Source: Lingula anatina
Taxonomy: Eukaryota; Animalia; Brachiopoda
Direction: 5' to 3'
Assembly (NCBI GenBank): GCA_051362555.1
Contig: CM120649.1
Coordinates: 19,606,567 to 19,670,566 of the forward strand
DNA length: 64,000 nt
This document shows, piece by piece, positions 10,309-63,869 of the stretch; position 1 is the first letter of the stretch; every line of letters starts with the position of its first letter. The notes under the pieces are model-generated. The model did no database searches, was not told the origin of the DNA, and worked only from the letters and a program-made list of their open reading frames with translations. The position numbers and the translations under genes are program-made.

Positions 10309-17286
<6,978 letters not shown>

Positions 17287-21226: not shown

Positions 21227-21362
21227 ATAAAGCCACAATCAATCAAATCATCTTTTTAGTTATTCTTGTTAGAAAGGCTGGGGATATTTCAGTTTCTGGG
21301 GACATAGATAACTGTTGCCACCATTTTGCTGCTACCTACCTGAGTGAACCAACCCTGTAAGT
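21227..21362 (+). promoter_or_regulatory. Putative TATA box and non-coding first exon of paralogue 1 (equivalents near 29797-29928 and 38425-38560)
   Basis: TATAAAGCCAC preceded by TGACGTCA (about 21208), then a conserved block of about 100 nt ending CCT|GTAAGT. Each paralogue has an AG acceptor shortly before its ATG. Confidence 0.45.
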
Positions 21363-21930: not shown

Positions 21931-23053
21931 ATGAAGAGTTACTCTGTTGGCTTTATTTTGACAATCGCCATGATGGCAGCCAGAGTGGTTTCCCAGGGTA
22001 AGTTACCAGTTCTTTTGTTATATTGTAACAGGAAGAAACAAACAGAAATACTGAAAAAGAAATGGTATTAAAACGGATTTTGTGTAGCATTATACTCGCT
22101 TTAGAGCACGTGTCGGTTTGTATTTGGAAGGAAACATCGGTAAGCTAACGGGCTTTTGTTCTGCTACCAGCGGTTTGAAATACATTTATCATGTCCATAC
22201 ACTCTTCTGCTTTGTTGAAAGCTTCACTCAAGGATTGTTTGACAGGGATGATAAACGTGCTACAAAATTCCTTGGATGTGGATCTTTTTAAAGGGCATCT
22301 TGTTTTTTCACAGGTTATATAAAATTGGGTTGCTGGGCTGACTCGTCAAACCGGGCCATTCCTCCTTTGGAGGGTAAAGATCCCATCCTTGACGGGGCAT
22401 ACTGGTTACGAACGAATGCAGTCGAGAAATGCTACCAAGCTGCAAGGAAACGCGGGTACAAATATTTTGCTTTACAGCACGGTGGATGGTGTGCCTCTTC
22501 CTGCAACGCTGGGCAGACATATATGAAATACGGGCCTTCTAATAATTGCCAACCAGACGGAGAAGGCGGTGGTTTTGCCAATCAACTTTACCAAATTACG
22601 GGCGGTAGGTGTTTTGGCACGTTTAACGTAGGTAACCAAAAGACAAATCTTTTGGGTTGATATTCACGATTGAAACTAACAATTTCAAGGCATTTAAAGA
22701 AACCTGTTATCCTAGCTGTTTTTGGTAACTTGACATTGACAACAATTAAATTGCACCGAGTCCGCTTGGACAAAAAGCCTGCATGTATGTTACAATGACA
22801 CTATTTAGCAAGCTGTTAAATCTATACCTAAAACTGTTAACGAATTAGGGTTGAAAACAAAAATTGATACCAGAATCTTTTGAAACGATAGAATTGTTGC
22901 AATATTTCATTATTTATGGAATTGGGTATAAAACGAAAAATACTATAGGCATAATAGAATTTGTACCCCAGCATTATGGCTGTGTGTGTGTGTGTGTGTA
23001 ATTTAACGTAGGTAACCACAAAACAAAAACTTTTGGGTCGTCGCTGCAGGGGA

Positions 23054-23125
<72 letters not shown>

Positions 23126-23634
23126 ATCTGAACTTATAAATCTTAACTGACATTCTTTTATCTTTTGACAAGGTGTAGGAACACACATTAGATACACAAG
23201 CCACTTTTTGTTGCTCTTGTCTCAGGTGGGGAGACACTTGATCATATTTTAACATACAAACGCCATGAACCAATGTGTCAAAAGCTACGTATATTTTCCT
23301 TATTTTAGGTTCAGAATGCGGGGACGGCAGCTACCCATATGCTGATAGTTTTGACTACCTGTGTTATCGCTCAGGTGTAAGAGACTGCGCTACCAATATG
23401 CCGTACTTCGATATGACCTCTGTTAATGATATATACGCCAAATGTTCTGAATTGTGTGGGTTTCCATTGACCGTCCAGTCTCTGCAAGAACTAATGCAAC
23501 TCGAACGACAGTTCACAGCGTTGGGTAGGTGAACGCTGGGTGATTTATAATTTGTAAACTTGAGACATCCTGTGACATGGGTCGTGCATGACTTGCTTAT
23601 ACTTACCCAATCTTTGCCTGGTCGTCGAAGAAAC

Positions 23635-23690
<56 letters not shown>

Positions 23691-23809
23691 GTTTTAGCGC
23701 CGTTTAACTGTACACAAGAGATGGCGACTACTGGTCAGGTGTCAGAGAATACCTCGGAGTACGCCGTGATCAAATATTTCCCCAGTTCCCAAGGTGAGGC
23801 TATTTATAT

Positions 23810-23875
<66 letters not shown>

Positions 23876-25134
23876 ATAAGCGCATTCAGAACAAATGATT
23901 CTCACACAAGCAGATTGAAATGGATATATATATACATTTATGTTTATTAATGTTGGCATTTATGTTCATTAATGTTGACATTAGGTATAATGTGTCTACC
24001 GTAACAATATTCCAGGCCAAATGGATTGGATCATCGACTTGCGCGACACGGAAATGACCTCCAGATTCATTAACCCACCAATCGAGGGAAGACATCTGAA
24101 GTTTGTGTTCCAGAATCAAGAAATGCGTTTGGATTTCCCTGCGTCGATTTCTGGCCAAGCTATCTGTGATATGCCGTCTAATGCAACAGTTACGGCGTCT
24201 GCACGTACGTATAGACATGATATAGGACAAAAATACCATTAAAGTTGAGGGTTTGATAGCACTCGTTGAAGACTTGCATCTTCTGTCGAAGTTCCTTATA
24301 TTGAAAAGCAATATGCTGTATGTACTGCTACTCCATAACAGGTTTTTTTAGTTTAAAAAGGAAAATCTTAGTTATTTATTATTTTACTTCACAAGCACTG
24401 ATGTCAATAATGATGTTCTTAAAAATGAAAGTGATTTGTACGTAGACCGAGAAAACACAGAAAAAAGCAAAAAAATAAAAACAAAATTTGAAAACTACCA
24501 TTTTCTCTTTTGCCAGCGGCGAAGTGTGTCATTGTTGGGGATCCCCACGTCACAAACTTAGATGGCAAACAACAATTACTGAATGCGGTGTGCAGGGTTA
24601 TTTTATCAGAGACTTGTGTGCCTACCAAACCTGGCGAAGCGCCTCTCCAACCGTTCTCAGTTACCGGAAGAAACAGACCTATTAAGCCAGGCAGCTCCAG
24701 AACATACATAGAGGAACTCACATTTAAAATGTTTGCTACCACTGCTGATATTAATGTCAACGGAGATGTGAAGGTACGCCGCTGAGAGTGGTAGTAGTTA
24801 TCGTTAGAGATTAAATAGAATGTGGACAGGAATTGGAAGTGTTATATTCTATTCTGTTCTGTTCTGTTGTTCTTTTCTGTTCTGTTCTGTTCTATTCCCG
24901 TATTTATAATATTAATTTCTTCATCAAAGGTAAATGGCGTGAATCGGACAGCGACAACCGCCCGTGTATACATTGGCAATGGCTTGCAGCTCTATCTCGC
25001 CAGTTTAACTAGAGGAAACCATCAACACCCTGCCGTTTTTGTTGAGGCCCCCAATGGTCTGAAGGTTGCCCTTACCGTTCCTGAGGGGGGAAACTTTAAG
25101 CCAGGACATCATGCCGAAATAACTACCCCAGGTA

Positions 25135-25177
<43 letters not shown>

Positions 25178-25476
25178 GAAATGACTTAACACGAATTCAA
25201 AGGTCAATGCGGATAAAAGTAACCATGCAAAAGATATGGTTTTTCCGCCAAAAACGTTACTCATACTTGACAGTGGTGATTGCTGGCGTGTTTCTAAAGA
25301 TATGTGTAAATCTAATTTTTGTTTATTTATGTATTTGTTAGCGGAATATGCAGGCAAGCTTTGTGGGGTTTGTGGAAATTTCAATGGTGATCCGAATGAC
25401 GATGACGAGGCTTGTTACGGACAATCTCCAGCAGACTGCGACATATGGCATCCATCGGATGGATCAAAGTAAGAGC

Positions 25477-25512
<36 letters not shown>

Positions 25513-25918
25513 ATTGTTTATCAAATTATAGAGGGTACCATTAAGTTATGTACAGTGATGCTTTGTTGTGAGTTCAGTTTGTTTTTATTATCTATAATCA
25601 TGACCGATGACATATTGTTTCCTGCGCTTTGTCAAGTGACATGTGACACGGGATGTTGTGTCTGGTCTTGCGCAGGATTCATACATAAAATGCACACAGA
25701 GAGAGAGAGAGCCCTTTCCCCCTCCCCGAAATAGAGAGTCCACTCTCCATTTATTGGTACAGGCAAACCTTGCCCTAGATTTTGACCCAATTAGGTCAGG
25801 CTAACCCTAACCATTATAACTATATGGAGGGCGAACTTTCTGTTACACGGACCCTCAGTTTCGTTACACCGGTATACACTCATTACATTGATTTACCTTT
25901 TTCAGTTGCCCAGCGTAA
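21931..25918 (+). CDS. Secreted WSC-like + atypical C-type-lectin-like + VWD protein, paralogue 1 (485 aa)
   Basis: Exons 21931-21997, 22314-22604, 23309-23524, 23698-23793, 24016-24204, 24517-24773, 24930-25131, 25342-25468 and 25906-25918 join in frame (1458 nt). Signal peptide MKSYSVGFILTIAMMAARVVSQ; WSC-like YIKLGCWAD...KCYQAA...GYKYFALQHGGWC; CTLD-like C..LCY...KCSELCGFPLTVQSLQEL...AICD; VWD CVIVGDPHVTNLDG...YAGKLCGVCGNFNGDPNDD. Confidence 0.88.
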
Positions 25919-27174
25919 TACCCAAACAGGCACTTAACCCGTATAACGGCCACGCCTTCACGATAGAACGGCTACGATATACGACAAACATACGAACTGA
26001 GAACAGACTACAACTGAGAACCTGGAGGACTACGGTTCTTGAATACAGTTAACAGGAGGTTTAATTAATGTTATATGGTGAACGACTATATCACTTGGCG
26101 GTGTTACTAAACTAGGCCTATATATATATTTGTCGTAAATGATATAGTTGATGGTGTTTCCTTAAATCGCTTGTTGTCCTTGTGAAATCGCTCAATTTGG
26201 TGGCTCTTTGGGGCGGCCTTTACATTTGTCCCTTGCTCAAAACCACTGCTTGTTGATCAATCGCGTTTGGTACGAACAAACAGGGCTTTACGGTTAGGTT
26301 ATTAAGTTTAGAGTGATAAAAGTGTAGTGTGACTATGGGAAATACTAGTAATACAAATTCACCATCGTCAGAAATCAAAAGGAGAAGAAAACGTATGATG
26401 TCTTCTCAGGAGACTTGTGATATTTAGAAGGAGTAGGATTGATGGTCATCCTGGATCTGAACCATTTCTGAACCAACAAAACGAATATTTTTTAATTAAA
26501 TCAAATAACAAAGGAAATGGGAGCTTGTGGCACGTGATATACAATGAGATATATTAGTGCTGCTATCGTCTTACTGTGTTTCAGACTTCAAGAAACGCCA
26601 AACTGCCTAGGTGGATTTAACACTATTATTGGGACACGCAGCTTTATACAAAGAGTATCTTAATATAAAAATTTGAAAGGTCGTTGTTTTTCCAGCTCTG
26701 TCAAATAACAGTAACTTTGTTGTTGGCTTTTATTGCTTTTGTTATTTTGCTTTTTTTTGTGTAATTTAAAGAACTTGGACTCTGATTTGGTCTTGATACA
26801 GCTGGTGAATAATATGTTTCACAACTGGATAGATTTGTTTCATATTATGCAAAATTAAACTTCATAATACACGGGTCATTTAAGAATGTGGTAATTATTT
26901 GGTTTGATGTTTTAACACTTCATTTTGTTTGAAGCACGCCTCTTTTTAAAAGTGTGCAGTCCGGATTTAATTGTTTAACAATGGCTTGTTCCATTTGCAG
27001 GAGGGTAATCTGCTGTCTTTGTAGATAAAAAGGAAATAAATGGTTTATGAAATGAAATAATTTTATTATTTTTGTGATGACTTTACAAACATCCCTGTCG
27101 CTTCATTTTTATATATTCATTTATTCACGCAGGCTTGGAGGGGAGGGAGGTTAAAGTGCCCCCTTTCCGATATC

Positions 27175-27579
27175 TCTCTTTCTCAAGTGCCCTGTCCCAC
27201 TAGGGCGTTGGCGATCATGGACTTCCACCTCTTCTTGTCCTTTGTGGTCTTCAACAGTTCTCGGTCCGCTATTCCTGTCCATCTACTTATGCTTGCTGTG
27301 TATTTTAATTTTTGCCTGCCCCTGCTTCGCTTTCCGTTGATCTTGCCTGTCACACTAAGATGTTTCAGCGCTTCCTTCCGCATTACGTGTCCCAGAAATT
27401 CCAACTGTCTCTTTCGTATGCCTTTTAGAAGGAAACGCTTTGTTCCTGCTCTCTCCAACACTTTTTGATTTGTCATTTTCTCTGTCCGAGATATTTTCAT
27501 CATTTTCCTGAGGAACCACATCTCTGCTGATTCTATTCGTTGTTCCATACCTTGGGATGTAGTACAGCATTCGCTACCA
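27175..27579 (-). mobile_element. 5'-truncated RTE-clade LINE insertion with 10-bp TSD
   Basis: ORF 27183-27548 (RIESAEMWFLRKMMKIS...KRQLEFLGHVMRKE...GKINGKRSRGRQK) is a typical RTE C-terminus. TTCCGATATC is duplicated at 27165-27174 and 27580-27589; the empty site is seen in the paralogous unit near 36785-36794. Confidence 0.9.
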
Positions 27580-27691
27580 TTCCGATATCACATATGATTA
27601 AAAAGTATTAATTGGGAAGTGAAAACTTTTCATAGGAATAAAAGGGAAAAATATTGAATCAACGAATTACGAAATAACAGTCATTGATTAA

Positions 27692-28030
27692 AGGGATAAT
27701 AACTCTTTGTTTTGGCCAAAAAATGAATTTTCCTGGAGTAAACAACAATCTTTCAGTACTCACCAATGGTTAATGAATCCATTTTTAATTTCAAAGGTAG
27801 TTCCTGGTTTTTTTTTTCTAAAAAATTGTTTTTTTGTTATAATCTCCTAAGAGATTATAACAGAGTAAAGCCATCAATGGAGGTCACGTGGTCTAAAGAC
27901 AAGCTCAGATATCAGAATAATAGCTATAACTGCCGATTTTCTTGTACAACAGAATGTATTATATTTCTATGAGTTGTTCACAATGATTTTATTGTGAAAT
28001 ATAGATCTCATACGAAGAGTTATTATCCCT
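27692..28030. mobile_element. TTAA-target MITE (Kolobok-like termini)
   Basis: TIR AGGGATAATAACTCTT ... AAGAGTTATTATCCCT with TTAA on both sides. The paralogous unit has a single TTAA empty site near 36892. Confidence 0.85.
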
Positions 28031-28489
28031 TTAAATGATGACGATCGGTCAATTCAAACTGAGTACTCATAATTTAAAAGAGAAAAGTGTCAGATACAAT
28101 GCTAACTTCAGCTTCAAATATAGTCTTAAAAGATACATTTTTTTATCCAAAAGATGTTAAAATACCTGAATGTGCAGAAATTTTCAACTGCTCTTTACTG
28201 CAGTCTTCCTCAGTGCTATTGTTTGACCACTAGGTGGAGTTGTGGTAAAAACAAAGTGCAAACTCAAAGGGACGTGCCACCCTGAATGTAAATGTACGTT
28301 GCAACAGATGTGTCTGATCACCCAGCCCCTCAAGCACAATAAAGAAAAGCAATATAAACCTGGCAGTTTTTTCTGTCGTGCACTGTGTTCTCTAAGTATA
28401 TCTGCCTGGTACTGTGTTTTTGGAGTTCACGATCCTGCACAGAAAACTTACTATGTTATGTGGTGCTTCAGTTAAGGAGTTGTCGTTTG

Positions 28490-28644
28490 GATTCAAAGGG
28501 ATGAAAGGCAGATAAAGACCACCTGTAGGCTTTGTCAAGAGTTTAGGGTTTTGGATGGGTGTGTCTGGTGTGACTATTTTGGGATCATGTAAAGAAAGGG
28601 AGTTGTGGAGGTCCATGATGGCCAACCTCCTGCAAGGGCAAGAT

Positions 28645-28680
<36 letters not shown>
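28490..28680 (+). mobile_element. Second copy of the RTE 3' fragment, duplicated with the tandem unit
   Basis: Homologous to 19300-19512 including the (GA)n tail and the downstream flank (28750-28880 matches 19572-19700). Confidence 0.7.
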
Positions 28681-28684
<4 letters not shown>

Positions 28685-29573
28685 TTAAGTACACACACGT
28701 ATACATGTCCCTAATACCTCAGCAGAATTAATGCACCGTTAGGAGATAAATTCACTGTCTGTCACCAAGTATGAATAATAGACAGTGAACATCCAACATG
28801 CCAAAGATGTATCCGGACGTGGTAGCGTTGAACGTCATAAGTCTGTACTCCACAATCAGAAGCATCTGTTGCTACTGGTAAATGTTTAAATGTTTTACTG
28901 AGAGGCGCCTTACATTGTATTCCGCCAGACAAACATGATGAGCAAAGCTAGGTCAATTTTGAAATCTTCTCCCAGCTCACACAGAACTTTTGGACAACTT
29001 AACCAAAGGGTAATATATATATATCGGTTAGACCACCAGCAAACTATAAGAAATCATTCTTCACTGTCACTGTTATTATCATTGACCCTAGAACATTGCC
29101 GTTATATATACACACAATCGACTAAGAAAAAAATTAGAAAAATTGTTATTTTGAATAATCATAAAACAACCATATGAGCTAAGGTAAAATTTAAACCGAA
29201 CATTGAGATATAATGCACCCACCATTATTTACATCTTGAAATTGTGTCAGGAAATGAATTATGTGGTACTTACATCAAGCATTTGACAGTTGGGGCGCAG
29301 TAAAATTTATGTGCTAGTACCTGACGACCGTCAAACGGCATACGGTTATTAAAAATGTATAGATTCTTAAGAGCCCAAAACATATTTTGACATAACAACA
29401 ACAACAACAAAAGTTGCTTGGTTTACTAATGATACCATGTAATAAACCTGGTAGTGTAGGTAGATAGTGTTAGAGATCGAGATCGAGATCAGTCAGTTAG
29501 GAGTTGATGTGTGCATTTGACAGCGCCATTGTGGACAACAACAACAATAACAACAATAACAACAACAACAACA

Positions 29574-29630
<57 letters not shown>

Positions 29631-31335
29631 GCAAAGTCATTTTATAAGGAATAAAAAAGAGTCGGTGAGAAATGGTTGTTGTTGAAGGAAATCTGATAAA
29701 TTATGTAATGTACTGGCGACTACCAAACGGCAGATTATGATTTAAGATGTACACATGGCGTGGGTTAATCTGTTCCTAGACGCCACCTGATGCACTATAA
29801 AGCCACAATCAGATCATCTTTACAGTTATTCCTGCTAGAACGCTGGGGATATTTCAGTTTGTGTTGGACATATAGAACTGTTGCCACCGTTTTGCTGCTA
29901 CCTACCTGAGTGAACCAGACCTGTAAGTACTGCTATTACCTGTGGAAGCATGGTCGTATAAATACCAAAAGTTTGAAGTGGTTAACGAATTTCGTTATTT
30001 GGGTGTCTAAATCATGAAGGTAGGTTTCACAAAGCTCAAAGCAATTGGGATTAGTTTGTGAAATAGGTGTAGGGCCTTGAGTTTTTGAACATTACCGATA
30101 TATTCCTGTTTGATACAGTACATTGTGTCTCGCCATGGAAGTGAAAATTGGGGTCACAATACATACATACAGTGTTGACATTTAATGCAGAATATTTTAT
30201 TTTGAAAGTTATGTCTAGGTAAAAGTGTAAATTATATTTCTGCCTTGTCTGTGTTACTGCTGCATTACGTAATGCGTGATGATTTCTTTGTGTAGTGCTC
30301 CTTGGGCTAGTCCAAGTATGACTATGGCAGAGCATGGTTATGCCCAAAAAGTCCCAATATTTCGGCAATGACTGGACATTCTTAAATTTTGCAAATATAA
30401 AAGCAGTGAATGTTAAAGAGCGTAAACTGAGCGAAGGAAAGTGTTACAGCATTGTTGCTCTGCGATGCTACGGCTGAAAACAGACAGACATTGTCAGACA
30501 GGTTTTTGTGTAGCAGAGAACGCTCCACACGCATATAAGACATTGGATTGAGTTCAGCTAGAGAACAATTTTGGCATGCGACAAACAGCTACGTTAATTC
30601 TGCAGCATACATGTGCCTTTGGCATTAGACAAGATTTCAAAATTTAAAAATCCCCGAGAACACAGTAATAATGACAAATTAATTTTCTACCAAAGTTTTC
30701 AATTCTTTTTGGTCAGATATTTATGAAATATTTTAGATCAATGGAAGAAAGAGTGGGAAATGAGAACAATCATCAACTCATGAAAATGAATATTATTATG
30801 TTAAAAAAAGCATTTCAAGAGAATTCAAACAAAGTGGCGAACGATAGCGTTTTTGGATACCACTTATCAAATTATCTTAATTGTTTGCAAGTTTATAAAA
30901 TAATAACAGATATAATGAATAAATTCCGAGCGGATTTATTATTAGAACATTCATAATCAAAATTTCAAAATTTACGGCAGTTGTATGGACTTTTGAAAGA
31001 AAGTAGTTGGAAAGACTTACCAACGCTGGTAAATTTTAAAAATATGTGTCGTTATCTTGTGGTTTAGCGGTATAAGGCAGAATTTATATAGTAAACATTT
31101 ATAATCATCCACCCTAGGGCAAGTGCACTAAAATTTCACAATGTCCATGCACATCCCAGTTGAAAGGTTTATCAATCCCCCGAAAATAAAAACCGGTGGT
31201 TGCCGGCATCGTTTTATTTCATACATTTTTAAGCGGCACTATTTTTTCATTCTATAATACAGGTGTCTGCTACGATCTTCAAAACCTGTGTTTATATTTT
31301 GAGGAAGACACGTCCAGCTTATCGGCCTGTAAACC

Positions 31336-33043
31336 ATGAAGAGTTACTCTATTGGTTTTTTCTTGACAGTCGCCATGATGCCAGCCAGAGTGGTTTCCCA
31401 GGGTTAGTTACCAGTTTTTTTATAGATAGAAATTCAGATTTTTAATAGAAAGCAACAACCCGAAATGTAAAAAAAGGAATGGTGTTAAAATTAATTTTGT
31501 TACAAGGCATTATATACGCTCTAGAGCACGTGTCGGTTTGTATTTGGAAGGAAACATCGGTAAGCTAACGGGCTTTTGTTCAGCTACCAGTGGCTACATT
31601 AGCGGTTTGAAATACATTTATCATGTCCATACACCCTACCGCTTTATTGAAAGCTTCACTCAAGGATTGTTCGACGGGGATGACAAACGTGCTCCAAAAA
31701 GTTCTTGGATGTGAACTTTTCTAAGGGCAGCTTGTTTTTTTCCCGCAGATTATATAAAATTGGGTTGCTGGGCTGACACGTCAAACCGGGCCATCCCTAC
31801 TTTAGAAGGTAAAGATCCCATCCTTGACGGGAGCTACAGGGCACGAAGGAACGCAATCAAGAAATGCTACCAAGCTGCAAGGAAACGCGGGTACAAATAT
31901 TTTGCCCTACAGCACAGTGGATGGTGTGCCTCTTCCTGCAACGCTGGGCAGACATATATGAAATATGGACCTTCTACTAATTGCCAAGCAGATGGAGAAG
32001 GTGGACCATGGGCCAACCAACTTTACCAAATTACTGGCGGTAGGTGTTTTGGCACGTTTAACGTAGGTAACCAAAAGACAAATCTTTTGGGTTGATATTC
32101 ACAATTGAAACTAACAATTTCAAGGCATTTAAAGAAACCTGTTATCCTAGCTGTTTTTGGTAACTTGACATTGACAACAACTAAAGTGCACCGAGTCCGC
32201 TTGGACAAAAAGCCTGCATGTATGTTACAATGACACTATTTAGCAAGCTGTTAAATCTTTACCTAAAACAGTTAACGAATTAGGGTTGAAAACAAAAATT
32301 GATACCAGAATCTTTTGAAACGATAGAATTGTTGCAATATTTCATTATTTATGGAATTGGGTATACAACGAAAAATACTATAGGCATAATAGAATTTGTA
32401 CCCCAGCATTATGACTGTGTGTGTGTGTATGTGTGTGTGTGTGTGTGTGTAATTTAACGTAGGTAACCACAAAACAAAAACTTTTGGGTCGTCGCTGCAG
32501 GGGACCAATATATATATATATATATATATATAATCTGAACTTATAAATCTAAACTGACCTTCTTTTATCTTTTGACAAGGTGTAGGAACACACATTAGAT
32601 ACACAAGCCACTTTTTGTTGCTCTTGTCTCAGGTGGGGAGACACTTGATCATATTTTAACATACAAACGCCATGAACCAATGTGTCAAAAGCTACGTATA
32701 TTTTCCTTATTTTAGGTTCAGAATGCGGGGACGGCAGCTACCCATATGCTGATAGTTTTGACTACCTGTGTTATCGCTCAGGTGTAAGAGACTGCACTAC
32801 CAATATGCCGTACTTTGATATGACCTCTGTTAATGATATATACGCCCGATGTTCTGAAATGTGTGGGTTTCCATTGGCCGTCCAGTCTCCGCAAGAACTA
32901 ATGCAACTCGATCGACAGTTCACAGCGTTGGGTAGGTGAACGCTGGGTGATTTATAATTTATAAACTTGAGACATCTCCTGTAACATGGACCATGCATGA
33001 CTTGCTTATACTTACCCAATCTTTGCCTGGTCGTCGAAGAAAC

Positions 33044-33087
<44 letters not shown>

Positions 33088-35290
33088 GTTTTAGCGCCCT
33101 CGTTTAACTGTACACAAGAGATGGCGACTACTGGTCAGGTGTCAGAGAAAACCTCGGAGTACGCCGTGATCAAATATTTCCCCAGTTCCCAAGGTGAGGA
33201 TATTTATGTCCACATATTTATATTTATATATATATTTATATCCATTAGCGCATTCAGAACAAATGATTCTCACGCAAGCAGATTGAAATGGATATATATA
33301 TATATACATTTATGTTTATTAATGTTGGCATTTATGTTCATTAATGTTGACATTAGGTATAATGTGTCTATCGTAACAATATTCCAGGCCAAATGGATTG
33401 GATCATCGACTTGCGCGACACGGGAATGACCTCCAGATTCATTAACCCACCAATCGTGGGAAGATATCTGAAGTTTGTTTTCAAGAATCAAGAAATGCGT
33501 TTGGATTTCCCTGCGTCGATTTCTGGCCAAGCTATCTGTGATATGCCGTCTAATGCAACAGTTTCGGCGTCAGCACGTACGTATAGACATGATATAGGAC
33601 AAAAATTCCATCAAAGTTGAGGGTTTTGATAGCACTCGTTGAAGACTTGCATCTTCTGTAAAAGTTCCTAATATTGAAAAGCAATATGCTGTATGTACTT
33701 CTACTCCAGAACAGGATTTTTTAGTTTAAAAAGGAAAATCTTAGTCATTTATTATTTTACTTCACAAGCACTGATGTCAATAATGATGTTCTTAAAAATG
33801 AAAGTGATTTGCACGTAGACCGAGAAAACACAGAAAAAAGCAAATAAATAAAAACAAAATTTGAAAACTACCATTTTCTCTTTTGCCAGCGGCGAAGTGT
33901 GTCATTGTTGGGGATCCCCACGTCACAAACTTAGATGGCAAACAACAATTACTGAATGCGGTGTGCAGGGTTATTTTATCAGAGACTTGTGTGCCTACCA
34001 AACCTGGCGAAGCGCTTCTCCAACCGTTCTCAGTTACCGGAAGAAACAGACCTATTAAGCCAGGCAGCTCCAGAACATACATAGAGGAACTCACATTTGA
34101 AATGTTTGCCACCACTGTTGATATTAATGTCAACGGAGATGTGAAGGTACGCCGTTGATAGTGGTAGTAGTTATCATTAGAGATTAAATAGAATGGGGAC
34201 AGGAATTGGAAGTGTTATATTCTATTCTGTTCTGTTCTGTTGTTCTATTCTGTTCTGTTCTGTTCTGTTCCCGTATTTATAATATTAATTTCTTCATCAA
34301 AGGTAAATGGACTCAGTCGGACAGTGACAACCGCCCCTGTCAACCTTGGCAATGACTTGCAGCTCTATCTCGCCAGTTTAACTAGAGGAAACCATCAACA
34401 CCCTGCCGTTTTTGTTGAGGCCCCCAATGGTGTGAAGGTTGCCCTTACCGTTCCTGAGGGGGGAAACTTTAAGCCAGGACATCATGCCGAAATAACTACC
34501 CCAGGTAAGGAGAGAGAGAGAGAGTGAAAGTGATAAAGGATCGAAGTAATCATGTAATAGAATTAGTTCCGCCGTCAAAAACGTAACTCGTACTTGACAG
34601 TGGTGATTGATGGCGTATTTCAAAACATATATGTGAATCTAATTTTTGTTTATTTATGTATTTGTTAGCGGAATATGCAGGCAAGCTTTGTGGGGTTTGT
34701 GGAAATTTCAATGGTGATCCGAATGACGATGATGAGGCTTGTTACGGACAATCTCCAGCAGACTGCGACATATGGCATCCATCGGATGGACCAAAGTAAG
34801 AGCCTCCTCTTCTCTCTCTTTCTCACACACACAACTGTTTATCAAATATGAATAGAAGGTACAATTAAGTTATGTACAATCTATGCATTGCTGTAAGTTC
34901 AAATAGAAGGTACTATTAAGTTATGTACACTCTATGTTTTGTTGTGAGTTCAGTTTGATTTTATTATCAGAAATCACGACCCATGACATACTGTTTACCG
35001 CGCTTTGTCAGGTGGCATGTAACGGGGGGAGGGGGGGAGGGGGGGCTGGGGGGGGGGGTTGTACCTGGTTTTGTGCAGGATTCATACTTAAAATGCACAG
35101 GGAGTGAGAGTCCCCCATGATAGAGAGTCTGCTTCCCATTTATTGGTACATGTAAGCCTCGCCCTAGATCTGGCCCACTTAGGTCAGGCTAACCGTAACC
35201 AATATAATTATGTGGAGGGCGGATTTTCTATTACACGGACCCTCAGTTCCACTCACCACATCAATTACCTTTTTCAGTTGCCCGGTGTAA
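31336..35290 (+). CDS. Secreted WSC-like + CTLD-like + VWD protein, paralogue 2 (486 aa)
   Basis: Exons 31336-31402, 31749-32039, 32717-32932, 33095-33193, 33388-33576, 33890-34146, 34303-34504, 34669-34795 and 35278-35290; same phases as paralogue 1, no stops seen. Confidence 0.86.
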
Positions 35291-38200
35291 TACCCCAACA
35301 GGGACCCAACCCGTATAACAGCCACGTCTTCACGATAGAACAACTACGATATACGACAAACATACGAACTGAGAACTTCGAGGACTACGATTCTTGAATA
35401 CAGTTAACAGAATATATATATTAATCAATATTATACGGTGAAAGACTATATCACTTGGTGGTGTTACTAGGCTTAATCTTCTCAAAAATGGTATACTTGA
35501 TGGTGTTTCTTTTAATCGCTTGATGTCCTTGTGAAATCGTTCATTTTGGGAACACTTTGGGGCGGCCTTAATTTTTGTCCCTTGATCAAAACCACTGTTT
35601 GGCGATTAATCGCGTTTTGCATGAACAAATGGGGTTTTCGGTTATTGAATGTAAAGTGATAAAAGTCACATGGAAATGGGAGTTTATGACACGTGGTATA
35701 CAATGAGATATATTAGCGCTATCATCTTACTGGGTCTCAGACTTTAAATAACTTCAAACTACATAGGTTAATACAACGCTACTGTTGAAACACGTTGCTT
35801 TATCCAAAGAGTATCTTATTATAAAAGTTGAGGAGCCATTGTTTTTTCCAGCTCTGTCGAATAACACCTACTCTCTCGTTGGCTTTTTTTTTTTTGGCTT
35901 TTGTTATTATTTTTTTTGTGTGTGTAATGTAAAGAACTCTGATTTCGCCTTGATACACCTGGTGAATAATGTGGTTCAAAACTGGACAGAATGGCTTCAT
36001 ATTACGCTGAGACAAACGTCCTAATACACGGACCATTTAAGGATGTAGTCATCATTTGGTTTAATGATTGTAAAATTCCTTTTATTTTAAGCACGTCTCC
36101 TTTGTAGGGCCGAAGGAGGTAATACTGGTTTAATTGTTTAACAATGGCTTATTGCATTGCAGTGGGGTAATATGCAGTCTTTGTGGATACAAAATAAGAA
36201 ATAAATGGATTGCGAAACTATACAATTGTATTATTTTTGTGACAAATTTGCAAACGTCCTCGTTGCTGCACTCTGATATATTCATTTGTTTATTTATTGT
36301 AAGGTCGGGTGCGGAATAATTTGCATAAAAAGCACTCATTTAAAGAATTAGCTCACCGCTCTTCTACTGTATCTCTCTCTCTCTCTCTCTGCTCAACAAT
36401 TTTAAACCGTAAATTTCGTGTTCTTAGTCAACAATGGACACTTTTCGTAAACATTCACTCACACAACCCGCTTTATTTTTGATACAAGACCCCCCCCCCC
36501 CCCCCCTTCATTTTCTTTAACAATTTCTATTACTGGTTCCCGGACCTGGTATTCAGATGAAATCTTTATCAACATAACGCGCTACATAGACGGTGTGCCG
36601 TTACCCATCACCACACGCTGCTTGAACGAGATAAGTGTACATACATAACATATATGGTCTGTTGCGTCGTTAAAATCTCAGTTGATGTTCGTTGTTAAAT
36701 CGACAATACAGAAATTAAAGTGGCTTGACAAGAAGAACGCAGGCTTGGTGGGGGGTGGGGGGGAGGAGGGGTAAATTGCTCCCTTTCTGATATCACATAT
36801 GATTACATAAGTGTATTGGGAAATGGAAACGTTTCATACAGGAAGAAAAGGGTAAAATTAAATCAACGAATTACGAAATAACATTCGTTGATTAAATGAT
36901 GGCGTATGGTTATTTCAAACTGAGTATTCATAATTTAAAAGAGAAAATTGTCAGATACAATGCTAACTTCAGCTTCAGATATAGTCTTAAGAGATTCATT
37001 TATTCATCCATAAGAGAGCGAGGCAAAAGATGTTAAAATGCTTATGTGTACAGAAATTTTCAACTGCTCTTTGCCGCACTCTTCCTCTGTGCTACTGTTT
37101 GACCACTAGGTGGATCGAGTTGTGGTCAAAATGAAGTGCAAACTCATGGGGAACCATGAAAGTAAAGTTATCACTTATGGAAATGTACGTTGCATCAGAC
37201 GTGCCGGATCACCCAGCTCCTCAAGCACAATAAAGAAAAGCAATATAAACCTGGCAGTATTTTTTCTGTCCTGCACTGTGCTCTCTAAGTATATCTGCCT
37301 GTACTGTGTTTTGGAGTTCACGATCCTGCACAGCAGAACTTTTAAGGTACCCACTTGTGGGCTTGATATATTATGAACGCATAGGTGAAATAGTGTTGTT
37401 GTTTGAAAAGCACAATACACTATAGTACCCTTGATTTAATGTAATTCAAAAATTAATCTCATATTTCATGTTTCAGGGGATTCGTTATGCACTGTGCCTG
37501 ACGACCACAAAACAGCAGATAGTCATTAAAAATGTACACGTCGCGTGGGTATTCTTTTTCTTCTCGTCACCTGATATCTTATTAAACCACACTAAATCAT
37601 GATGGTAGGTTTAACAAAGCTCAAAAACAATTGGGATTAGTTTGTGAAATAGGTGTAGGGCTTTGAAGTTTTGAACATTACTTGTAAATCCCTGTTTGAT
37701 GCATTAATATTGTGTCTATAGTTCTGCTCCATATGTCCGTCTTTTTCTCTCCGGTGGATAACCGTGGCGTTGGAGCACTAGGGTAGAAAATGTGTCAGCC
37801 AAAGCTCTTGATGTGTGATTATTACTATTACTAGTCACATTACCCTTAAAATAATGACTTAAAAAAAGTAAAATGTATCTTTGTTTCAAAAGTTTGCAAA
37901 GTAGAGCAAATATTTAAATGTCAAAGCTTTTTCGCAAGCTATATAGGATTTTGATGGAATGATTTAACTGAAGAAACAGTTTATTATGTATTTTAAAAAA
38001 TACGTTTTGGGACCTTTATAAAATTGTTCTATTTGTGAACAACAAACACAAAACAACAACAAGGATAACAACGACAATAAAAATGATAAAAGTGATACCA
38101 AAAAAAGCAAACCCCATTCACAAGTAAGAAGAAAAAATCTGCTAAAAACGGTTATTGCTGAAGTAAATGTGTCTTCCCAGGGTTCACAGTAGGTCGGCTA

Positions 38201-39691
38201 CAGAATTGTTGAATTATGTACTGTGCTTGACGACAACAAAACAGCAGATTGTCATTAAAGATGTACACATTGTTGAATTAAATCTGTCTTTTCGAGGTTC
38301 ACAGTAGGTCAGCTACAGAATTGTTGAATTATGCACTATGCTTGACGACCACAAAACAGCAGATTGTCATAAAAATTTTACACATCGCGTGGGTATTCTT
38401 TTTCTTGGCGTTAGCTGATATCCTATAAAGCCACAATCAATCAAATCATCATTTCAGTTATTCCTGCTAGAAGGCTGGGGATATTTCAGTTTCTGTTGGA
38501 CATAGATAACTGTTGCCACCGTTTTGCTGCTACCTGCCTGAGTGAACCAGACCTGTAAGTACTGTTATTACCTATGGAAGTATTGTCGTATAAATACCAA
38601 GAGTAAATAAAAAATTGTGTTATTTGGGTGTCATACTAAACCATGATGGTAGTTTTTACAAGCTCAAAAGCAATTTCGATTAGTTTTCAAAAGTTTGCAA
38701 AGCAGAGCAAATATTTAGATGTCAAAGCTTTTTTTGCACGCTATAGGTGATTTTGATGTATTGGTTTAACTGAAGAAGCAGTTTAGTATGTATTCTAAAA
38801 TATACGTTTAGGACCTTTATAAAAGTGTTCTATCGTTCTTTGTTTACAAAGTTTATCACAGATTCTATTTCGCAAAGCACATTGTCAACCCTTTTCTATC
38901 AACACATACCAAAACCAAAGAAAGAGATATCAACACCCGTTCAATTATTTCTCCAGTTAATGTGTAATTATTGGTTTCAACATCACCTACTTTTGAAAAT
39001 ACTTTGACATATGTATGTGTCTCATGTGTACAGTAAACATAGAAAATAGCTTGCATTGTTGTCAAAGGAAGTTTGGTCAGTCACATGGCTGGATTGTCCG
39101 TGCACGGAGATTCCAGATCAGTCAACTAGGGTAATAAACGTAGATATCAGACAGTTAGAAGTTGATCTATGTGCACTTTACAGCGCCATTGTGGACAACA
39201 AAACAACAACGAGGACAACTAGAACAACAACAACAATGAAAATGATAATAGTGATACCTTAAAAACAAAACCTCATTCACAAGGAAGAAGACAAAATTTG
39301 CTAAAAACGGTTGTTGTTGAAGCAAATCTGTGTCTTCTCAGGGTATTCACAGTAGGTCAGCTATAGAACTGTTGAATTATGTACTGTGCTTGACGACCAC
39401 AAAACAGCAGTAGTTTTCATATATTGATTGTAAGTTTTAAAATTGCAAATATATTGATTTTTTATTTTTAAAATCGCACAGTGCTCATGCACATCCCAGT
39501 TGTGTCGGAGTGCCAAAATCGTTTTAAAAAACTACTTTGTGGTTTCCGACATCGTTTTATTTCATAATTTTTTAAGCGGCACTAGTTTTTCATTCTATGA
39601 ATTAAAGGTGTCTGCTACGATCTTCAAAACCTTTGTTTTAGGAAGACATTGAACCTCATCCAGCTTATCGACCACTTTGCTGTAAACCACG

Positions 39692-42600
39692 ATGAGTTAC
39701 TATGTTGGTTTTATTTTGACCATAGCCATGATGGCAACCAGAGTGGATACCCAGGGTAAGTAACAAGTTACCAGTTTTTATATAAATAGAGATCAGTTTC
39801 GTTACAGATAGCGATAAACCAAATTGCTAAAAAAGGGAAGGTGATAAAGTTGATTTTGTTAAGTGACATTATATTCGCTAAAAAGCACGTGGAGGAGACC
39901 ATTCCCACAGAAATTTAGATCGATCTATCCCCCTGGGGAGTCTCACTAGATTGCTGTCAGCTTCATCGGCCTAAATGTCTTTGTCGCCTACTAAAAGCTG
40001 TAAGGGGGTAACTAACTTTCTTGCGCGCTCGGCTTCCGGAAGCTGACAGCAATTTAGCGTGAACGCCCAGGAAGTTAGGTCGGTACAGATGGATCGATCT
40101 AAATCTGTGGGAACCCAGTCTAAGTGTGTTTTTGGAGGGAAACAACGTGAGCTATTGGGCTTTTGTTCTGCTAGATTAGTGATTACATAAGCGGTTTGAA
40201 AGGAAATGTATTATTCCCATACACCCTGCGGTGTTGAATGCTTCACTGTAGGATTGTTCGACGGGGATGATAAACGTGCTCCAAAGTGTTCTTGGAAATG
40301 GAACTTTTCTAAACTCAGCTTGTTTTTTTTTTCTCACAGGTTATATAAAATTGGGTTGCTGGACTGACAGGGCACACAGGGCCATCCCTACTTTAGAAGG
40401 TAAAGATCCCATCCTTGACGGGAGTTACCACGTGAGAGAGGACCCAGTCGGAAAATGCTACCAAGTTGCAAGGAAACGCGGGTACAAGTATTTCGCCATA
40501 CAGTACGGTGGATGGTGCGCCTCTTCCTGTAACGCCGGGCAGACATATATGAAATATGGGCCTTCTACAGATTGCCAACCGGACGGAAAAGGTGGACCAT
40601 GGGCCAACCAACTATACCAAATAACGGGCGGTAAGTGTTTTGGTACATTGCACGTAGATTACCAAAAGACTATTTTAACATAGACCCCATTCCCATAGAT
40701 TTTAGATCGATCTATCCCCGTGGGGAGTCTCACTAGATTTCTGTCAGCTTAGCCGGCTTAAATATCTGTCCCGCCTCCTAAAAGCTGTAAGGGGGTAATT
40801 AATTTCCGTGCGCAGTTGGTTGACAGCAATTTAGCGTGAACCCCCAGGGACTTAGGTCGATCTAGTTGGATCGATCTAAATCTCTGGGAATGCGCTCATA
40901 AACACTTTGAACCAATCAGTCAAAAGCTAAGTATTTTTTTTCTCTTTCTTAGGTTCAGAATGCGGAGACAGCAGCTACCCATATGCTGATAGTTTTGACT
41001 ACCTGTGTTATCGCTCAGGTGTAAGAGACTGCGCTACCAATATGCCGTACTTCGATATGACCTCTGTTGATGACATATACACCCAATGTTCTGAAATGTG
41101 TGGATTCCCATTGACTGTCCAGTCTCTGCAAGAACTAATGCAACTCGAACGACAGTTCACAGCGTTGGGTAGGTGAACGCTCAGTGATTTATAAACTTGA
41201 TATTGCACAATGCGGTTTTCTTCTTCTTATTATTATTATTTTATATTTTAGTGTTTAACTGTACACAGGAGATGGCGACTACAGGTCAGGTGTCAGAGAA
41301 GACCGCAGAGTACGCCGTGATCAAATATATCCCCAGTGCCAAAGGTAAGGACATATGTGCAACATTTATATGTGCAGCAGCTTGCATAATGAAAAACGGC
41401 AAATGAGCGAAGTATTGATCCAGGTGCATCAACGTAAACCATTTTAATGAAAAATGTATGCGTTTATGTTACTTAAACACTGTCCGTTTCTATTGATAAT
41501 ATATAAAATGTGTCTATCGTAACTATTCCAGGCCAGGTGGATTGGATCATTGACTTGCGTGACAGGGCAATGACCTCCAGATTCCTAAACCCGCCAATCG
41601 AGGGAAGTCATCTTAAGTTTGTGTTCCAGAATCAAGAAATGAGTTTGGATTTCCCTGCGTCAATTTCTGGCCAAGCCCTCTGTGATGTAACGTCTTATGC
41701 AATAGTTACAGCTTCTGCGGGTACGTTTTGAGCGACTAAAGACATGATATAGAAGTAAAATTCCATCAAAGTTGATAGCACTTGCATCTTCTGTCGAAGT
41801 CCCGAGTATTGAAAAGCATTATCCTGTATGTTCTGCTACTCCAGCACAGGTTTTTTTTCAGTTTAAAGAGGAAAATCTTAGTCAGCTATTATTTCACTTC
41901 AACAGCACTGATGTCAATAATGATGTACTTAAAAATGTAAGTGATTTTTTTCGGAATGTACGTAGACCGAGAAAACACAGAAATAAAAAAGCAAATAAAT
42001 AAAAACAAAATTTGAAAACTACAATATTTATCCTTTACCAGCGGCGCAGTGTGTCATTGTTGGGGATCCCCACGTCACAAACTTAGATGGCAAACAACAA
42101 TTACTGAATGCGGTGTGCAGGGTTATTTTATCAGAGACTTGTGTGCCTACCAAACCTGGCGAAGCGCCTCTCCAACCGTTCTCAGTTACCGGAAGAAACA
42201 AACCTATCAGGCCAGGCAGCGCCAGAACATACATAGAGGAACTCACTTTTAAAATGTTCGCTACCACTGTTGATATTAATGTCAACGGAGATGTGAAGGT
42301 TCGCCATTGAGAGTGGTAGTTATCATCAGAGGTTTAATACAATGGGGACAGGAATTGGAAGTGTACTACTCTGTTCTGTTGTATTCTTTCCTTTCTATTT
42401 TGTATTGTTCTGTTCTGTTGTTCTGCTCTGCTCTGCTCTGTTCTATTCTATTCCTGTATTTATAATAATAATTTCTTTATCAAAGGTAAATGCCATGAAT
42501 CGGACAGTGACAACCGCGCGTGTCAGCATTGCCAATGGCCTGGAGCTCTATCTCGGCAGTTTAACTACAGGAAACCATCAACATCCTGCTGTTTTTGTTG

Positions 42601-43499
42601 AGGCGATCAATGGTGTGAAGGTTGCCCTTACCGTTCCTGAGGGTGGAAACTTTAAGCCAGGACATCATGCCGAAATAACTACCCCAGGTAAGGAGAGAGA
42701 GAATCGAAATAACTTAACACGAATTCAGAGGTCAAGGTGGATAAAAAATAATCGTGTTATAGAATTGGTTTCACCGTCAAAAACGCAACTCGTGCTAGCC
42801 AGTGATGAGTGCTGGCGTATTTCAAAACATATATGTGAATCTAATTTTTGTTTTTTATACATTTGTTAGCTGAATATGCCGGCAAGCTTTGTGGGGTTTG
42901 TGGAAATTTCAATGGTGATCCGAATGACGATGACGAGGCTTGTTACGGACAATCTCCAGCAGACTGCGGCATATGGCATCCATCGGATGGACCAAAGTAA
43001 GAGCCTCCTCTTCTCTCTCTTTCTCACACACACAACTGTTTATCAAATATGAATAGAAGGTAAAATTAAGTTATGTACAATCCATGCATTGCTGTAAGTT
43101 CAAACAGAAGGTACTATTAAGTTATGTACAATCTATGCTTTGTTGTGAGTTCAGTTTGTTTTTATTATCAGAAATCACGACCCATGACATACTGTTTACC
43201 ACGCTTTGTCAGGTGGCATGTGACGGGGGGGAGGGGGGGGGGCTGGGGGGGTTGTACCTGGTTTTGTGCAGGATTCATACTTAAAATGCACAGGGAGTGA
43301 GAGTCCCCCATGATAGAGAGTCTGCTTCCCATTTATTGGTACATGTAAGCCTCGCCCTAGATCTGGCCCACTTAGGTCAGGCTAACCCTAACCATTATAA
43401 TTATATGGAGGGCGGATTTTCTGTTACACGGACCCTCAGTTTCGTTACACCGGTATACACTCATTACATTGATTTACCTTTTTCAGTTGCCCAGCGTAA
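39692..43499 (+). CDS. Secreted WSC-like + CTLD-like + VWD protein, paralogue 3 (483 aa)
   Basis: Exons 39692-39755, 40340-40630, 40953-41168, 41252-41344, 41532-41720, 42042-42298, 42486-42687, 42870-42996 and 43487-43499; same phases, no stops seen. Confidence 0.85.
39896..40122. mobile_element. Palindromic non-autonomous element in intron 1 of paralogue 3
   Basis: AGACCATTCCCACAGAAATTTAGATCGATC ... GATCGATCTAAATCTGTGGGAACCCAGTCTA; absent from the homologous intron of paralogues 1 and 2. Confidence 0.8.
40682..40895. mobile_element. Second copy of the same element, in intron 2 of paralogue 3
   Basis: AGACCCCATTCCCATAGATTTTAGATCGATC ... GATCGATCTAAATCTCTGGGAATG; body nearly identical to the 39896 and 63870 copies. 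Confidence 0.8.
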
Positions 43500-53125: not shown

Positions 53126-53304
53126 AATAGACTTGTGAAGATTCTTTTTTTTGTCTATAGCTATTTATATTAGTTTGATCTTACCATCCAATATTTCATC
53201 TGGATACTGGATGGTAAGATCAAACCAAGGAGTTATAACAGATATAACTCCTTGATCAAACTAATATAAATAGCTATAGACAAAAGAATCTTCACAAGTC
53301 TATT
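53126..53304. repeat. Nested triple palindrome between the convergent FReD and CEP295 3' ends
   Basis: Outer near-perfect inverted repeat of about 50 bp; inner GTTTGATCTTACCATCCA / TGGATGGTAAGATCAAAC and CAAGGAGTTATA / TATAACTCCTTG. Confidence 0.85.
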
Positions 53305-63314: not shown

Positions 63315-63345
<31 letters not shown>

Positions 63346-63834: not shown

Positions 63835-63869
63835 CTGCAAATATGTAATGTCAAAATAAGTCAAGTCTA

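What the first reader, a model, noticed from the sequence alone, without database searches (positions are those of the whole stretch)
22314..40630. The WSC-like exon is hypervariable between paralogues while neighbouring sequence is nearly identical
Hand counts over the 97-aa WSC exon give about 14 differences (copy 1 vs 2), 20 (1 vs 3) and 19 (2 vs 3), against 3-5 of about 86 aa in the first VWD exon and 5-6 of 72 aa in the first CTLD exon. Changes cluster in patches: DSSNR/DTSNR/DRAHR, AYWLRTNAVE/SYRARRNAIK/SYHVREDPVG, QHG/QHS/QYG and GGGF/GGPW/GGPW. All cysteines are kept. The following intron is almost identical between copies 1 and 2 (22605-22980 vs 32040-32415), so the exon is more diverged than its downstream intron. 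Inference: diversifying selection on a ligand-binding surface, or exclusion from gene conversion.
Basis: partly seen in the sequence, partly recalled or inferred. Interest (0 to 1): 0.75.

Follow-up and report, generated by a model that had tools for sequence, protein, structure and literature searches.

The report
Patchwork of three brachiopod lectin-like genes
In three neighbouring copies of a predicted secreted, likely sugar-binding gene of the lamp shell Lingula, one exon looks unusually variable mainly because the DNA behind it was likely made alike again by gene conversion, although a ten-codon patch inside it changes faster than nearby non-coding DNA and likely borders a binding pocket.

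Summary
The three copies are intact 9-exon genes (signal peptide, WSC-like domain, unidentified middle domain, VWD) of Lingula anatina. The counts 14/20/19 of 97 are right, but the comparators were selective: other exons reach 12-24%.

The whole exon is not hypervariable. Synonymous divergence is raised more than non-synonymous (dN/dS about 0.3). Between copies 1 and 2 the exon (33/291) differs as much as the intron upstream (38/314). The anomaly is a 3%-divergent tract from 22585 to 25215 between flanks at 13-14%: a step, best read as gene conversion. Two RefSeq genes show the reverse pattern (WSC 2/97, body 25/366).

A real residue remains. Codons 29-38 differ at 33-53% of bases, above the intron rate (corrected P 4e-4). 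RNA from other animals carries a fourth version. Copy 1's 18-base GGF block turns up on a different background. The variable loops likely cluster at one end of the fold. A site-model signal (p 0.03) vanishes when multi-base changes are allowed (p 0.47).

Verdict: a conversion mosaic with short block swaps, likely with local selection on one loop; a known kind of evolution in an unstudied gene.

The parts
21931..25918 (+). Copy 1 gene, 485 codons. Coding exons 21931-21997, 22314-22604, 23309-23524, 23698-23793, 24016-24204, 24517-24773, 24930-25131, 25342-25468, 25906-25918
   Evidence: GT-AG introns and an open frame; reads of a related form cover the exons and show joints across introns 1, 2, 4, 5 and 6
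31336..35290 (+). Copy 2 gene, 486 codons. Coding exons 31336-31402, 31749-32039, 32716-32931, 33095-33193, 33388-33576, 33890-34146, 34303-34504, 34669-34795, 35278-35290
39692..43499 (+). Copy 3 gene, ATG one codon later than in copies 1 and 2. Coding exons 39692-39755, 40340-40630, 40953-41168, 41252-41344, 41532-41720, 42042-42298, 42486-42687, 42870-42996, 43487-43499
   Evidence: reads of a related form cover exons 2-4 and join exons 2 and 3
22314..22604 (+). WSC-like exon of copy 1, symmetric phase 1-1, 97 codons
   Evidence: fold of the copy 2 domain matches Kremen1 and yeast Wsc1
31749..32039 (+). WSC-like exon of copy 2
40340..40630 (+). WSC-like exon of copy 3
22585..25215 (+). Low-divergence tract shared by copies 1 and 2 (70 differences in 2310 positions, 3.0%), between 84/660 (12.7%) and 134/961 (13.9%); inferred gene-conversion or unequal-crossover tract
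   Evidence: change-point fit; per-segment table
34544..35248 (+). Second low-divergence tract, shared by copy 2 and copy 3 (42746-43441); intron 8 differs at 19 of 474 bases, against 54/359 for copies 1/2 and 42/375 for copies 1/3
22397..22426 (+). Hot patch, exon codons 29-38 (copy 2 31832-31861; copy 3 40423-40452); 10, 16 and 15 of 30 bases differ pairwise
   Evidence: a fourth version in RNA reads
22565..22582 (+). GGF block private to copy 1 among the three copies: 8 changes in 18 bases, 4 of them synonymous; the same block is seen on another background in a minority of reads of run X19
39899..40113 (.). Short element with terminal inverted repeats (MITE-like) inserted in intron 1 of copy 3
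40682..40890 (.). Second copy of the same element in intron 2 of copy 3, so that the copy 3 WSC-like exon is bracketed by the two insertions

Best explanation
These are three intact tandem genes for a predicted secreted, likely mucus-associated recognition protein, and their WSC-like exon stands out because a likely gene-conversion tract made the DNA behind it alike again, while short blocks inside the exon are likely swapped between copies and one loop beside a predicted pocket is likely also under local diversifying selection. Steps. (1) Shown: the three copies differ at about 10-21% in most alignable introns and flanks. (2) Shown: copies 1 and 2 differ at only 3% from 22585 to 25215, and copies 2 and 3 at about 4% in intron 8; inferred: long conversion or unequal-crossover tracts. 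(3) Shown: the WSC-like exon lies 5' of the first tract, at background divergence and under purifying selection overall. (4) Shown: two short blocks carry dense changes that include synonymous ones (copy 1 codons 85-90; copy 3 codons 29-38), and the first occurs on two backgrounds; inferred: short-tract conversion, for copy 3 from a more distant WSC-type exon (donor not found). (5) Shown: for copy 1 vs 2, codons 29-38 have an excess of amino-acid-changing but not of silent differences; inferred and weaker: selection for new binding specificity. (6) Inferred from fold homology and covariation: the patches rim a conserved site (Asp10, Arg14, Gln55, Trp59, Trp88, Asn90, exon numbering) that would bind a glycan or another surface ligand.
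For: Step profile with change points 22585 and 25215 (2dLL 153 over one rate) and exon equal to intron 1, p 0.80. Fourfold sites in the exon 5/34, 6/32, 5/31, like non-coding background 0.14, 0.15, 0.11. dN/dS 0.26-0.31. RefSeq P0050 and P0089 differ at 2/97 in WSC but 25/366 in the body; P0050 has a copy-2-type WSC (2/97) on a copy-1-type body (6/366). GGF block: pS 0.89; 25 reads of X19 (2 in X18, 1 in X20) carry it joined to a 3' end of the other type, with the other type's letters at codons 78 and 92 in nearly all reads. Copy 3 has 12 of its 31 private changes in 30 bases (p 0.0005), with pS 0.69-0.74. Patch above the intron-1 rate, P 5e-6, 4e-4 after 88 windows; copy 1 vs 2 pN 0.36 vs intron 0.12 (p 0.004, window chosen after looking), pS 0.24 (p 0.20). 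Fold matches WSC (Z 11.5, rmsd 2.0, 83 aligned). Loops L1, L2, L4 and L5 cover one end of this fold (PMC9024836, passages), and covariation pairs 31-56, 36-58, 14-88, 10-55, 55-90 link the patches to that site.
Against: The tract begins three bases after the GGF block, which selection against overwriting it would also give. The RefSeq mosaics could be assembly chimeras across the near-identical intron 2; not tested. The read tables are cut to 40 rows (199 and 45 rows hidden), so the expressed form is known only in part, and it comes from one study. No donor exon was found at DNA level. With the exon's own dS as the neutral rate the patch is not significant after correction (P 0.008; 0.08 for 10 windows). 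The site-model signal disappears under multi-base or rate-variation nulls. Variable sites fall in columns that vary across the whole family (2.16 vs 1.27 bits, p 0.0008), which plain tolerance also predicts. No ligand is known, and residue coordinates of the model were not available.
Confidence: 0.6

Rival explanations
1. Selection keeps the whole WSC-like exon different between copies and purges conversion tracts that cross it, as for exon 5 of human red and green opsins; each copy has its own ligand specificity.
For: The copy 1/2 tract stops at 22585, right behind the GGF block. The block also persists in another lineage with different flanks. M1a vs M2a p 0.033 and M8a vs M8 p 0.009 in the exon, no signal in exons 3-9. 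Under this model raised dS is expected and is no refutation (PMC3924837, passages).
Against: No peak: exon 1, intron 1 and upstream flanks are as divergent as the exon. Two RefSeq neighbours share almost the same WSC exon. The signal is lost with multi-base changes (p 0.47) or site-rate variation (p 0.47). Outside the two patches pN is 0.03-0.07. A dense block of mismatches can also stop a tract mechanically (own knowledge).
Confidence: 0.17
2. Nothing adaptive and no block transfer: the exon is merely older than the converted body, and its surface loops drift, with a few multi-base mutations.
For: Nearly neutral model with multi-base changes has the best AIC of six (1329.8). Variable sites are family-variable columns. 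Fourfold sites sit at background. A multi-base patch also occurs in exon 3.
Against: All three copies pile private changes into codons 29-38 (7/24, 6/13, 12/31 in a tenth of the exon), above a wholly unconstrained stretch at the intron-1 rate. The same 8-change GGF block on two backgrounds needs recombination.
Confidence: 0.16
3. The low-divergence tract or the mosaics are assembly artefacts (collapsed or chimeric repeats), so the contrast between exon and body is partly technical.
For: Near-identical tandem repeats are prone to mis-assembly (own knowledge); no long reads or whole genome were available.
Against: The tract still holds 70 differences and different microsatellite lengths. All splice sites and frames are intact. 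A RefSeq contig of 22,467 bases also holds three related gene models. Raw RNA reads, not assemblies, show the GGF block on another background.
Confidence: 0.07

Closest known systems
Concerted evolution of tandem duplicates by gene conversion; selection-kept 'peak of divergence' (human red/green opsin exon 5; review PMC3924837, passages read)
   Same: Tandem paralogues, homogenised introns, one divergent exon next to them.
   Different: Here divergence is high on the 5' side as well (a step), so the opsin signature is not met; orthologue-versus-paralogue trees could not be built.
Short-tract (micro) gene conversion at MHC peptide-binding exons (recalled, not from a call)
   Same: Short blocks with linked silent and amino-acid changes move between backgrounds in the exon that likely carries the binding surface.
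   Different: Secreted WSC-fold protein of a brachiopod; ligand, immune role and balancing selection are all untested; only one block is seen on two backgrounds.
WSC domain PF01822 (Kremen1 5FWS, yeast Wsc1 7PZ2, fungal beta-glucan-binding WSC proteins named in PMC9024836)
   Same: Same predicted fold: Foldseek E 2e-4, TM 0.61; VIA Z 11.5 and 9.8.
   Different: Four family-conserved cysteines instead of eight, no CGG motif, Pfam score below the cut-off; belongs to a marine-invertebrate subfamily (corals, amphioxus, hemichordates, tunicates) with no solved member by sequence.
FCGBP / mucin-type VWD proteins
   Same: VWD passes the Pfam cut-off; best solved relative is FCGBP, E 8e-56; GDPH motif present (its self-cleavage role is recalled).
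   Different: One VWD only, behind a WSC-like and an unidentified middle domain; residues 115-485 found no other protein of 266-849 aa among 1761 candidates, and none of the 150 best hits spans the middle domain.

Membership tests
WSC domain (PF01822) | Pfam profile at gathering score | tested here: inconclusive
   E 1.3e-5 to 4.1e-5, 24-26 bits against a cut-off of 27.8; only family hit
WSC domain (PF01822) | WSC / PAN-type fold | tested here: met
   Model pLDDT 96; the four rows with Z 8 or more are Kremen1 (two entries), yeast Wsc1 and a fungal glyoxal oxidase region; Foldseek top six rows Kremen1 and Wsc1
WSC domain (PF01822) | Eight cysteines in four disulfides and the CGG motif (PMC9024836) | tested here: not met
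   Four cysteines conserved in 215 family domains plus one odd one (codon 64); EGG in place of CGG. Hence 'WSC-like'
C-type lectin domain (PF00059), middle domain | Profile match | tested here: inconclusive
   No Pfam hit; a 42-sequence profile of my own scores it no better than 200 shuffles; Atlas lead at 0.86, 125 shared features, Lectin_C on 29% of the cluster; single-sequence model too poor (pLDDT 37)
C-type lectin domain (PF00059), middle domain | EPN/QPD and WND sugar-calcium motifs (motifs recalled) | tested here: not met
   Absent from the translations
VWD domain (PF00094) | Pfam profile at gathering score | tested here: met
   55.7 bits against 22.9, E 9e-15, on P0050
Selection-kept divergence island (opsin type) | Divergent exon between two homogenised introns | tested here: not met
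   Intron 1 38/314 with 8 indels, intron 2 9/616
Selection-kept divergence island (opsin type) | Orthologues closer than paralogues in the exon only | not testable with these tools
   No relative genome held; expressed form known only from cut read tables
Gene under diversifying selection | Site class with dN/dS above 1 that survives multi-hit and rate-variation nulls | tested here: inconclusive
   p 0.033 and 0.009 under standard models; p 0.47 under both alternative nulls; three sequences only
Short-tract gene conversion | Same multi-change block on different backgrounds | tested here: met
   GGF block in copy 1 and in 25 reads of X19 with other flanking letters; allele or paralogue not told apart
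Short-tract gene conversion | Donor sequence identified | not testable with these tools
   No genome or DNA of the other Lingula WSC genes on hand

The most novel reading that the evidence does not exclude
A germline, MHC-like diversifier in a brachiopod: a mucus protein whose WSC-fold head keeps a fixed pocket while the loops around it are renewed by short-tract conversion from other WSC exons in the genome and kept diverse by selection, with old variants such as GGF versus GPW shared between diverged Lingula lineages. It would make this widespread, uncharacterised marine WSC-like subfamily a variable recognition domain with ready-made natural specificity variants.
Probability: 0.25. Interest if true: 0.6.

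Novelty: new member of a known kind. Interest (0 to 1): 0.32.

Why it matters
Mostly it is a caution: a divergent exon beside a near-identical intron in a tandem array is what a conversion boundary looks like and is no evidence of selection by itself. What is left is modest but usable. The variable loops and the conserved residues they surround point to the likely binding site of a WSC-like subfamily that is common in corals, amphioxus, hemichordates and tunicates and for which my searches found no characterised member. Four natural variants of a 96-residue domain make its ligand and specificity directly testable.

Tried and rejected
Whole genome: none held, so no search for donor exons. Whole-exon positive selection: rejected. 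An exon older than its flanks: suggested by counting-method dS (0.28-0.52) but not by fourfold sites or by the exon outside the patches (pS 0.17-0.28 vs intron 0.12-0.21, p 0.17-0.20). Silent changes clustering beside amino-acid changes across the exon: not seen (7/22 vs 13/48, p 0.78; third-position clustering p 0.16). Three-segment change-point fits for pairs with copy 3 only picked out poorly alignable introns and were not used. CTLD identity of the middle domain: not supported. Full-length model of P0050 without alignment: unusable, not searched. Sequence search of solved structures with the WSC-like domain: 0 hits. Run search: no RNA holder listed in the index; runs X12 and X15 gave next to no reads on the coding exons, apart from a few X15 reads of what looks like another, tandem-unit WSC gene. 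Earlier findings of the scan: none. Literature: 'Lingula' with 'WSC domain' 0 papers; 'WSC' with 'brachiopod' 5 papers whose listing shows none on this gene; searches listed none on it either. The protocadherin conversion paper was not held and is not relied on. No supplements were read.
Full report
WHAT IS THERE. Self-comparison of the window shows three direct copies of a unit of about 9 kb. Each holds an intact nine-exon gene with GT-AG introns: 21931-25918, 31336-35290 and 39692-43499. The products are 484-486 residues: a signal-peptide-like exon (judged by eye), the 97-codon exon in question (phase 1 on both sides), a middle domain in exons 3-5 and a VWD domain in exons 6-8. A named protein 98% identical over the domain is from the brachiopod Lingula anatina (P0050, XP_013398607.1); its cluster holds two more models from one 22,467-base contig (P0089, P0090). 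No whole genome is held. RNA runs X18 and X19 cover the exons and show splice joints; X12 and X15 give next to nothing on them (4 runs laid). The expressed form is mostly 90-95% alike, so it comes from another lineage under the same species label; L. anatina is reported to diverge among localities (PMC8146825, abstract). Expression of these exact copies is not shown.

THE OBSERVATION. The counts are right: 14, 20 and 19 of 97. The comparators were the two quietest large exons (first VWD exon 3, 6, 7 of 86; exon 3 6, 5, 8 of 72). Exon 5 differs at 5, 11 and 15 of 63, exon 7 at 8, 10 and 12 of 67, the signal exon at 4, 6 and 10 of 22. Against exons 3-9 together the WSC-like exon is more variable for pairs 1/2 (p 0.023) and 1/3 (p 0.017), not for 2/3 (p 0.15). 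Intron 2 of copies 1 and 2 is indeed nearly identical (9 of 616), but intron 1 is not (38 of 314, 8 indels).

THE WHOLE EXON IS NOT UNDER DIVERSIFYING SELECTION. dS in the exon is 0.28, 0.52 and 0.35 against 0.044, 0.14 and 0.18 in exons 3-9; dN is 0.085, 0.13 and 0.11 against 0.031, 0.052 and 0.063; dN/dS is 0.26-0.31, below 1 in all three pairs (p 0.001 or less). Fourfold-degenerate sites differ at 5/34, 6/32 and 5/31, like pooled non-coding sequence (0.14, 0.15, 0.11). Along copies 1 and 2 the best three-segment fit is 84/660 (12.7%) up to 22585, 70/2310 (3.0%) to 25215 and 134/961 (13.9%) beyond. The exon equals intron 1 (33/291 vs 38/314, p 0.80). So the exon is at background and the body is the anomaly. 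A second low stretch joins copies 2 and 3 around intron 8 (19/474). Tracts with different partners are what ectopic gene conversion or unequal crossover gives (inference from established knowledge). Selection against conversion should leave a peak between two homogenised introns, as at opsin exon 5 (PMC3924837, passages); this is a step. The RefSeq genes show the reverse pattern: P0050 and P0089 differ at 2/97 in the WSC-like domain and 25/366 behind it, and P0050 joins a copy-2-type WSC to a copy-1-type body. That may be a real recombinant or an assembly chimera; I could not test which.

WHAT REMAINS: TWO PATCHES. Codons 29-38 differ at 10, 16 and 15 of 30 bases. A wholly unconstrained stretch at the intron-1 rate reaches that sum with P 5e-6 (4e-4 for 88 windows); at the exon's own dS, which the patch itself inflates, P is 0.008 (0.08 for 10 windows, 0.70 for 88). 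Private changes in the patch are 7 of 24, 6 of 13 and 12 of 31 (densest-30-base p 0.056, 0.034, 0.0005). In pairs with copy 3 both classes are raised (pN 0.45-0.47, pS 0.69-0.74), which suggests an imported block; in pair 1/2 only pN is (0.36 vs intron 0.12, p 0.004 uncorrected; pS 0.24, p 0.20), which looks more like selection. The second patch, codons 85-90 of copy 1, has 8 changes in 18 bases, 4 silent (pS 0.89).

RNA READS ADD A FOURTH FORM. On copy 3, three runs of one study show 24 listed differences in this exon (40 rows shown, 45 hidden). Read by hand, 20 of the 24 equal the letter of copy 1 or 2, 3 are new and 1 sits in a shifted alignment; on copy 1, all 12 listed exon rows of X18 carry the copy 3 letter (199 rows hidden). 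Its patch reads GYRSRTNAIE and lies 6, 5 and 15 bases from copies 1, 2 and 3, so the copy 3 patch is the outlier. That patch (REDP) resembles the RENP of three WSC-like units in another Lingula protein (P0020), and X15 holds a few reads of a tandem-unit gene at least 85% alike, so near donors likely exist; none was identified. The form also loses the odd cysteine at codon 64. In X19, 25 reads (2 in X18, 1 in X20; 184 X19 reads show the main joint) carry copy 1's 18-base GGF block joined to the other form's 3' end, while letters at codons 78 and 92 are of the other type in 411/411 and 373/376 reads. The block therefore sits on two backgrounds within about 44 bases: direct evidence of short-tract exchange, whether between alleles or paralogues.

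SITE MODELS. My own GY94 fits on three sequences give a class with dN/dS about 6 at 10% of sites (M1a/M2a p 0.033; M7/M8 p 0.032; M8a/M8 p 0.009) and none in exons 3-9. Allowing double and triple changes fits better with no positive class (AIC 1329.8, best of six), and adding the class then gains nothing (p 0.47); the same holds against site-rate variation (p 0.47). Such false positives are documented (PMC10336034, abstract). Three recombining sequences cannot separate repeated selection from block changes.

STRUCTURE. With a 93-sequence alignment the domain folds at pLDDT 96 and matches Kremen1 (Z 11.5, rmsd 2.0, 83 aligned) and yeast Wsc1 (Z 9.8) (Foldseek). Pfam WSC scores just under its cut-off, and the domain has four conserved cysteines, not eight: WSC-like. 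In Wsc1 the long loop L5 with loops L1, L2 and L4 covers one end of the domain (PMC9024836, passages). By secondary structure the variable stretches 11-13, 29-38, 56-57 and 77-88 fall in or next to the matching loops, and covariation in 465 family domains (effective 267) ranks pairs 31-56, 55-86, 10-55, 36-58, 10-90, 55-90, 14-88 and 14-59 among its top 45. The 23 variable positions are family-variable columns (2.16 vs 1.27 bits, p 0.0008), which fits tolerance as well as specificity. WSC domains elsewhere bind beta-glucan or proteins. The VWD is closest to FCGBP among solved structures, which suggests a mucus protein (inference). The middle domain is not shown to be a C-type lectin.

HOW IT LIKELY WORKS. 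Long tracts keep resetting the bodies of neighbouring copies to near identity. The WSC-like exon of copies 1/2 lies just outside the latest tract, and that of copy 3 is bracketed by two inserted elements and a replaced intron 2, which would hinder pairing. Short tracts move blocks within the exon, likely also from other WSC exons. Purifying selection holds the core, and selection likely favours new residues in the loop at 29-38. I give this 0.6; selective exclusion of the whole exon 0.17; pure drift 0.16; assembly artefact 0.07.

NOVELTY. Conversion mosaics in tandem arrays and block swapping in binding exons are known kinds. My searches found no paper on this gene or on a WSC domain in Lingula (listings only), and no earlier finding of the scan. 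The headline claim falls; a small, testable lead on an uncharacterised domain family stays. Interest 0.32.

Noticed in passing
window 39899-40113, 40682-40890, 63870-63998: Three copies of a short element with terminal inverted repeats; two bracket the copy 3 WSC-like exon. RNA reads pile on it more than 1000 deep with varied flanks, so it is a common repeat.
   Followed up: partly
window 21274-21358: RNA reads begin at 21274-21277 and join to about 21842: a non-coding first exon of the gene, with homologous stretches before copies 2 and 3.
   Followed up: partly
window 37485-39410: The upstream region of copy 3 holds several partial repeats of the promoter and first-exon region.
   Followed up: no
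window 23437-23442 (copy 1), 41081-41100 (copy 3): Exon 3 has its own small variable patch: AK, AR, TQ in the three copies, EL plus a three-base insertion in the RNA form.
   Followed up: partly
window 22502-22504 and homologous codons: A fifth cysteine (codon 64) not seen in the rest of the family is kept in all three copies but is tyrosine in the RNA form.
   Followed up: partly
window 23309-24204: The middle domain has no confirmed family and no relative outside this gene cluster; only a weak C-type-lectin lead.
   Followed up: yes
window 25709-25875: Part of intron 8 is a repeat that draws many RNA reads with unrelated flanks in all four runs.
   Followed up: no
window 27183-27587, minus strand: A 134-codon open stretch that looks like the end of a LINE-type reverse transcriptase (resemblance recalled, not tested).
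   Followed up: no
window 10300-15640, minus strand: Exon-like Arg/Gly/Ser/Pro-rich open stretches, resembling an RNA-binding protein (recalled, not tested).
   Followed up: no
window 55310-63850, minus strand: A gene with very large low-complexity exons (open stretches of 804 and 579 codons); not identified.
   Followed up: no
window 16074-16379 and 53126-53304: Long imperfect palindromes, likely further small mobile elements.
   Followed up: no
proteins P0004-P0088, P0197: The same four-cysteine WSC-like unit occurs in corals, amphioxus, hemichordates and tunicates, beside lectin domains or in arrays of up to 38 units; no solved member by sequence.
   Followed up: partly
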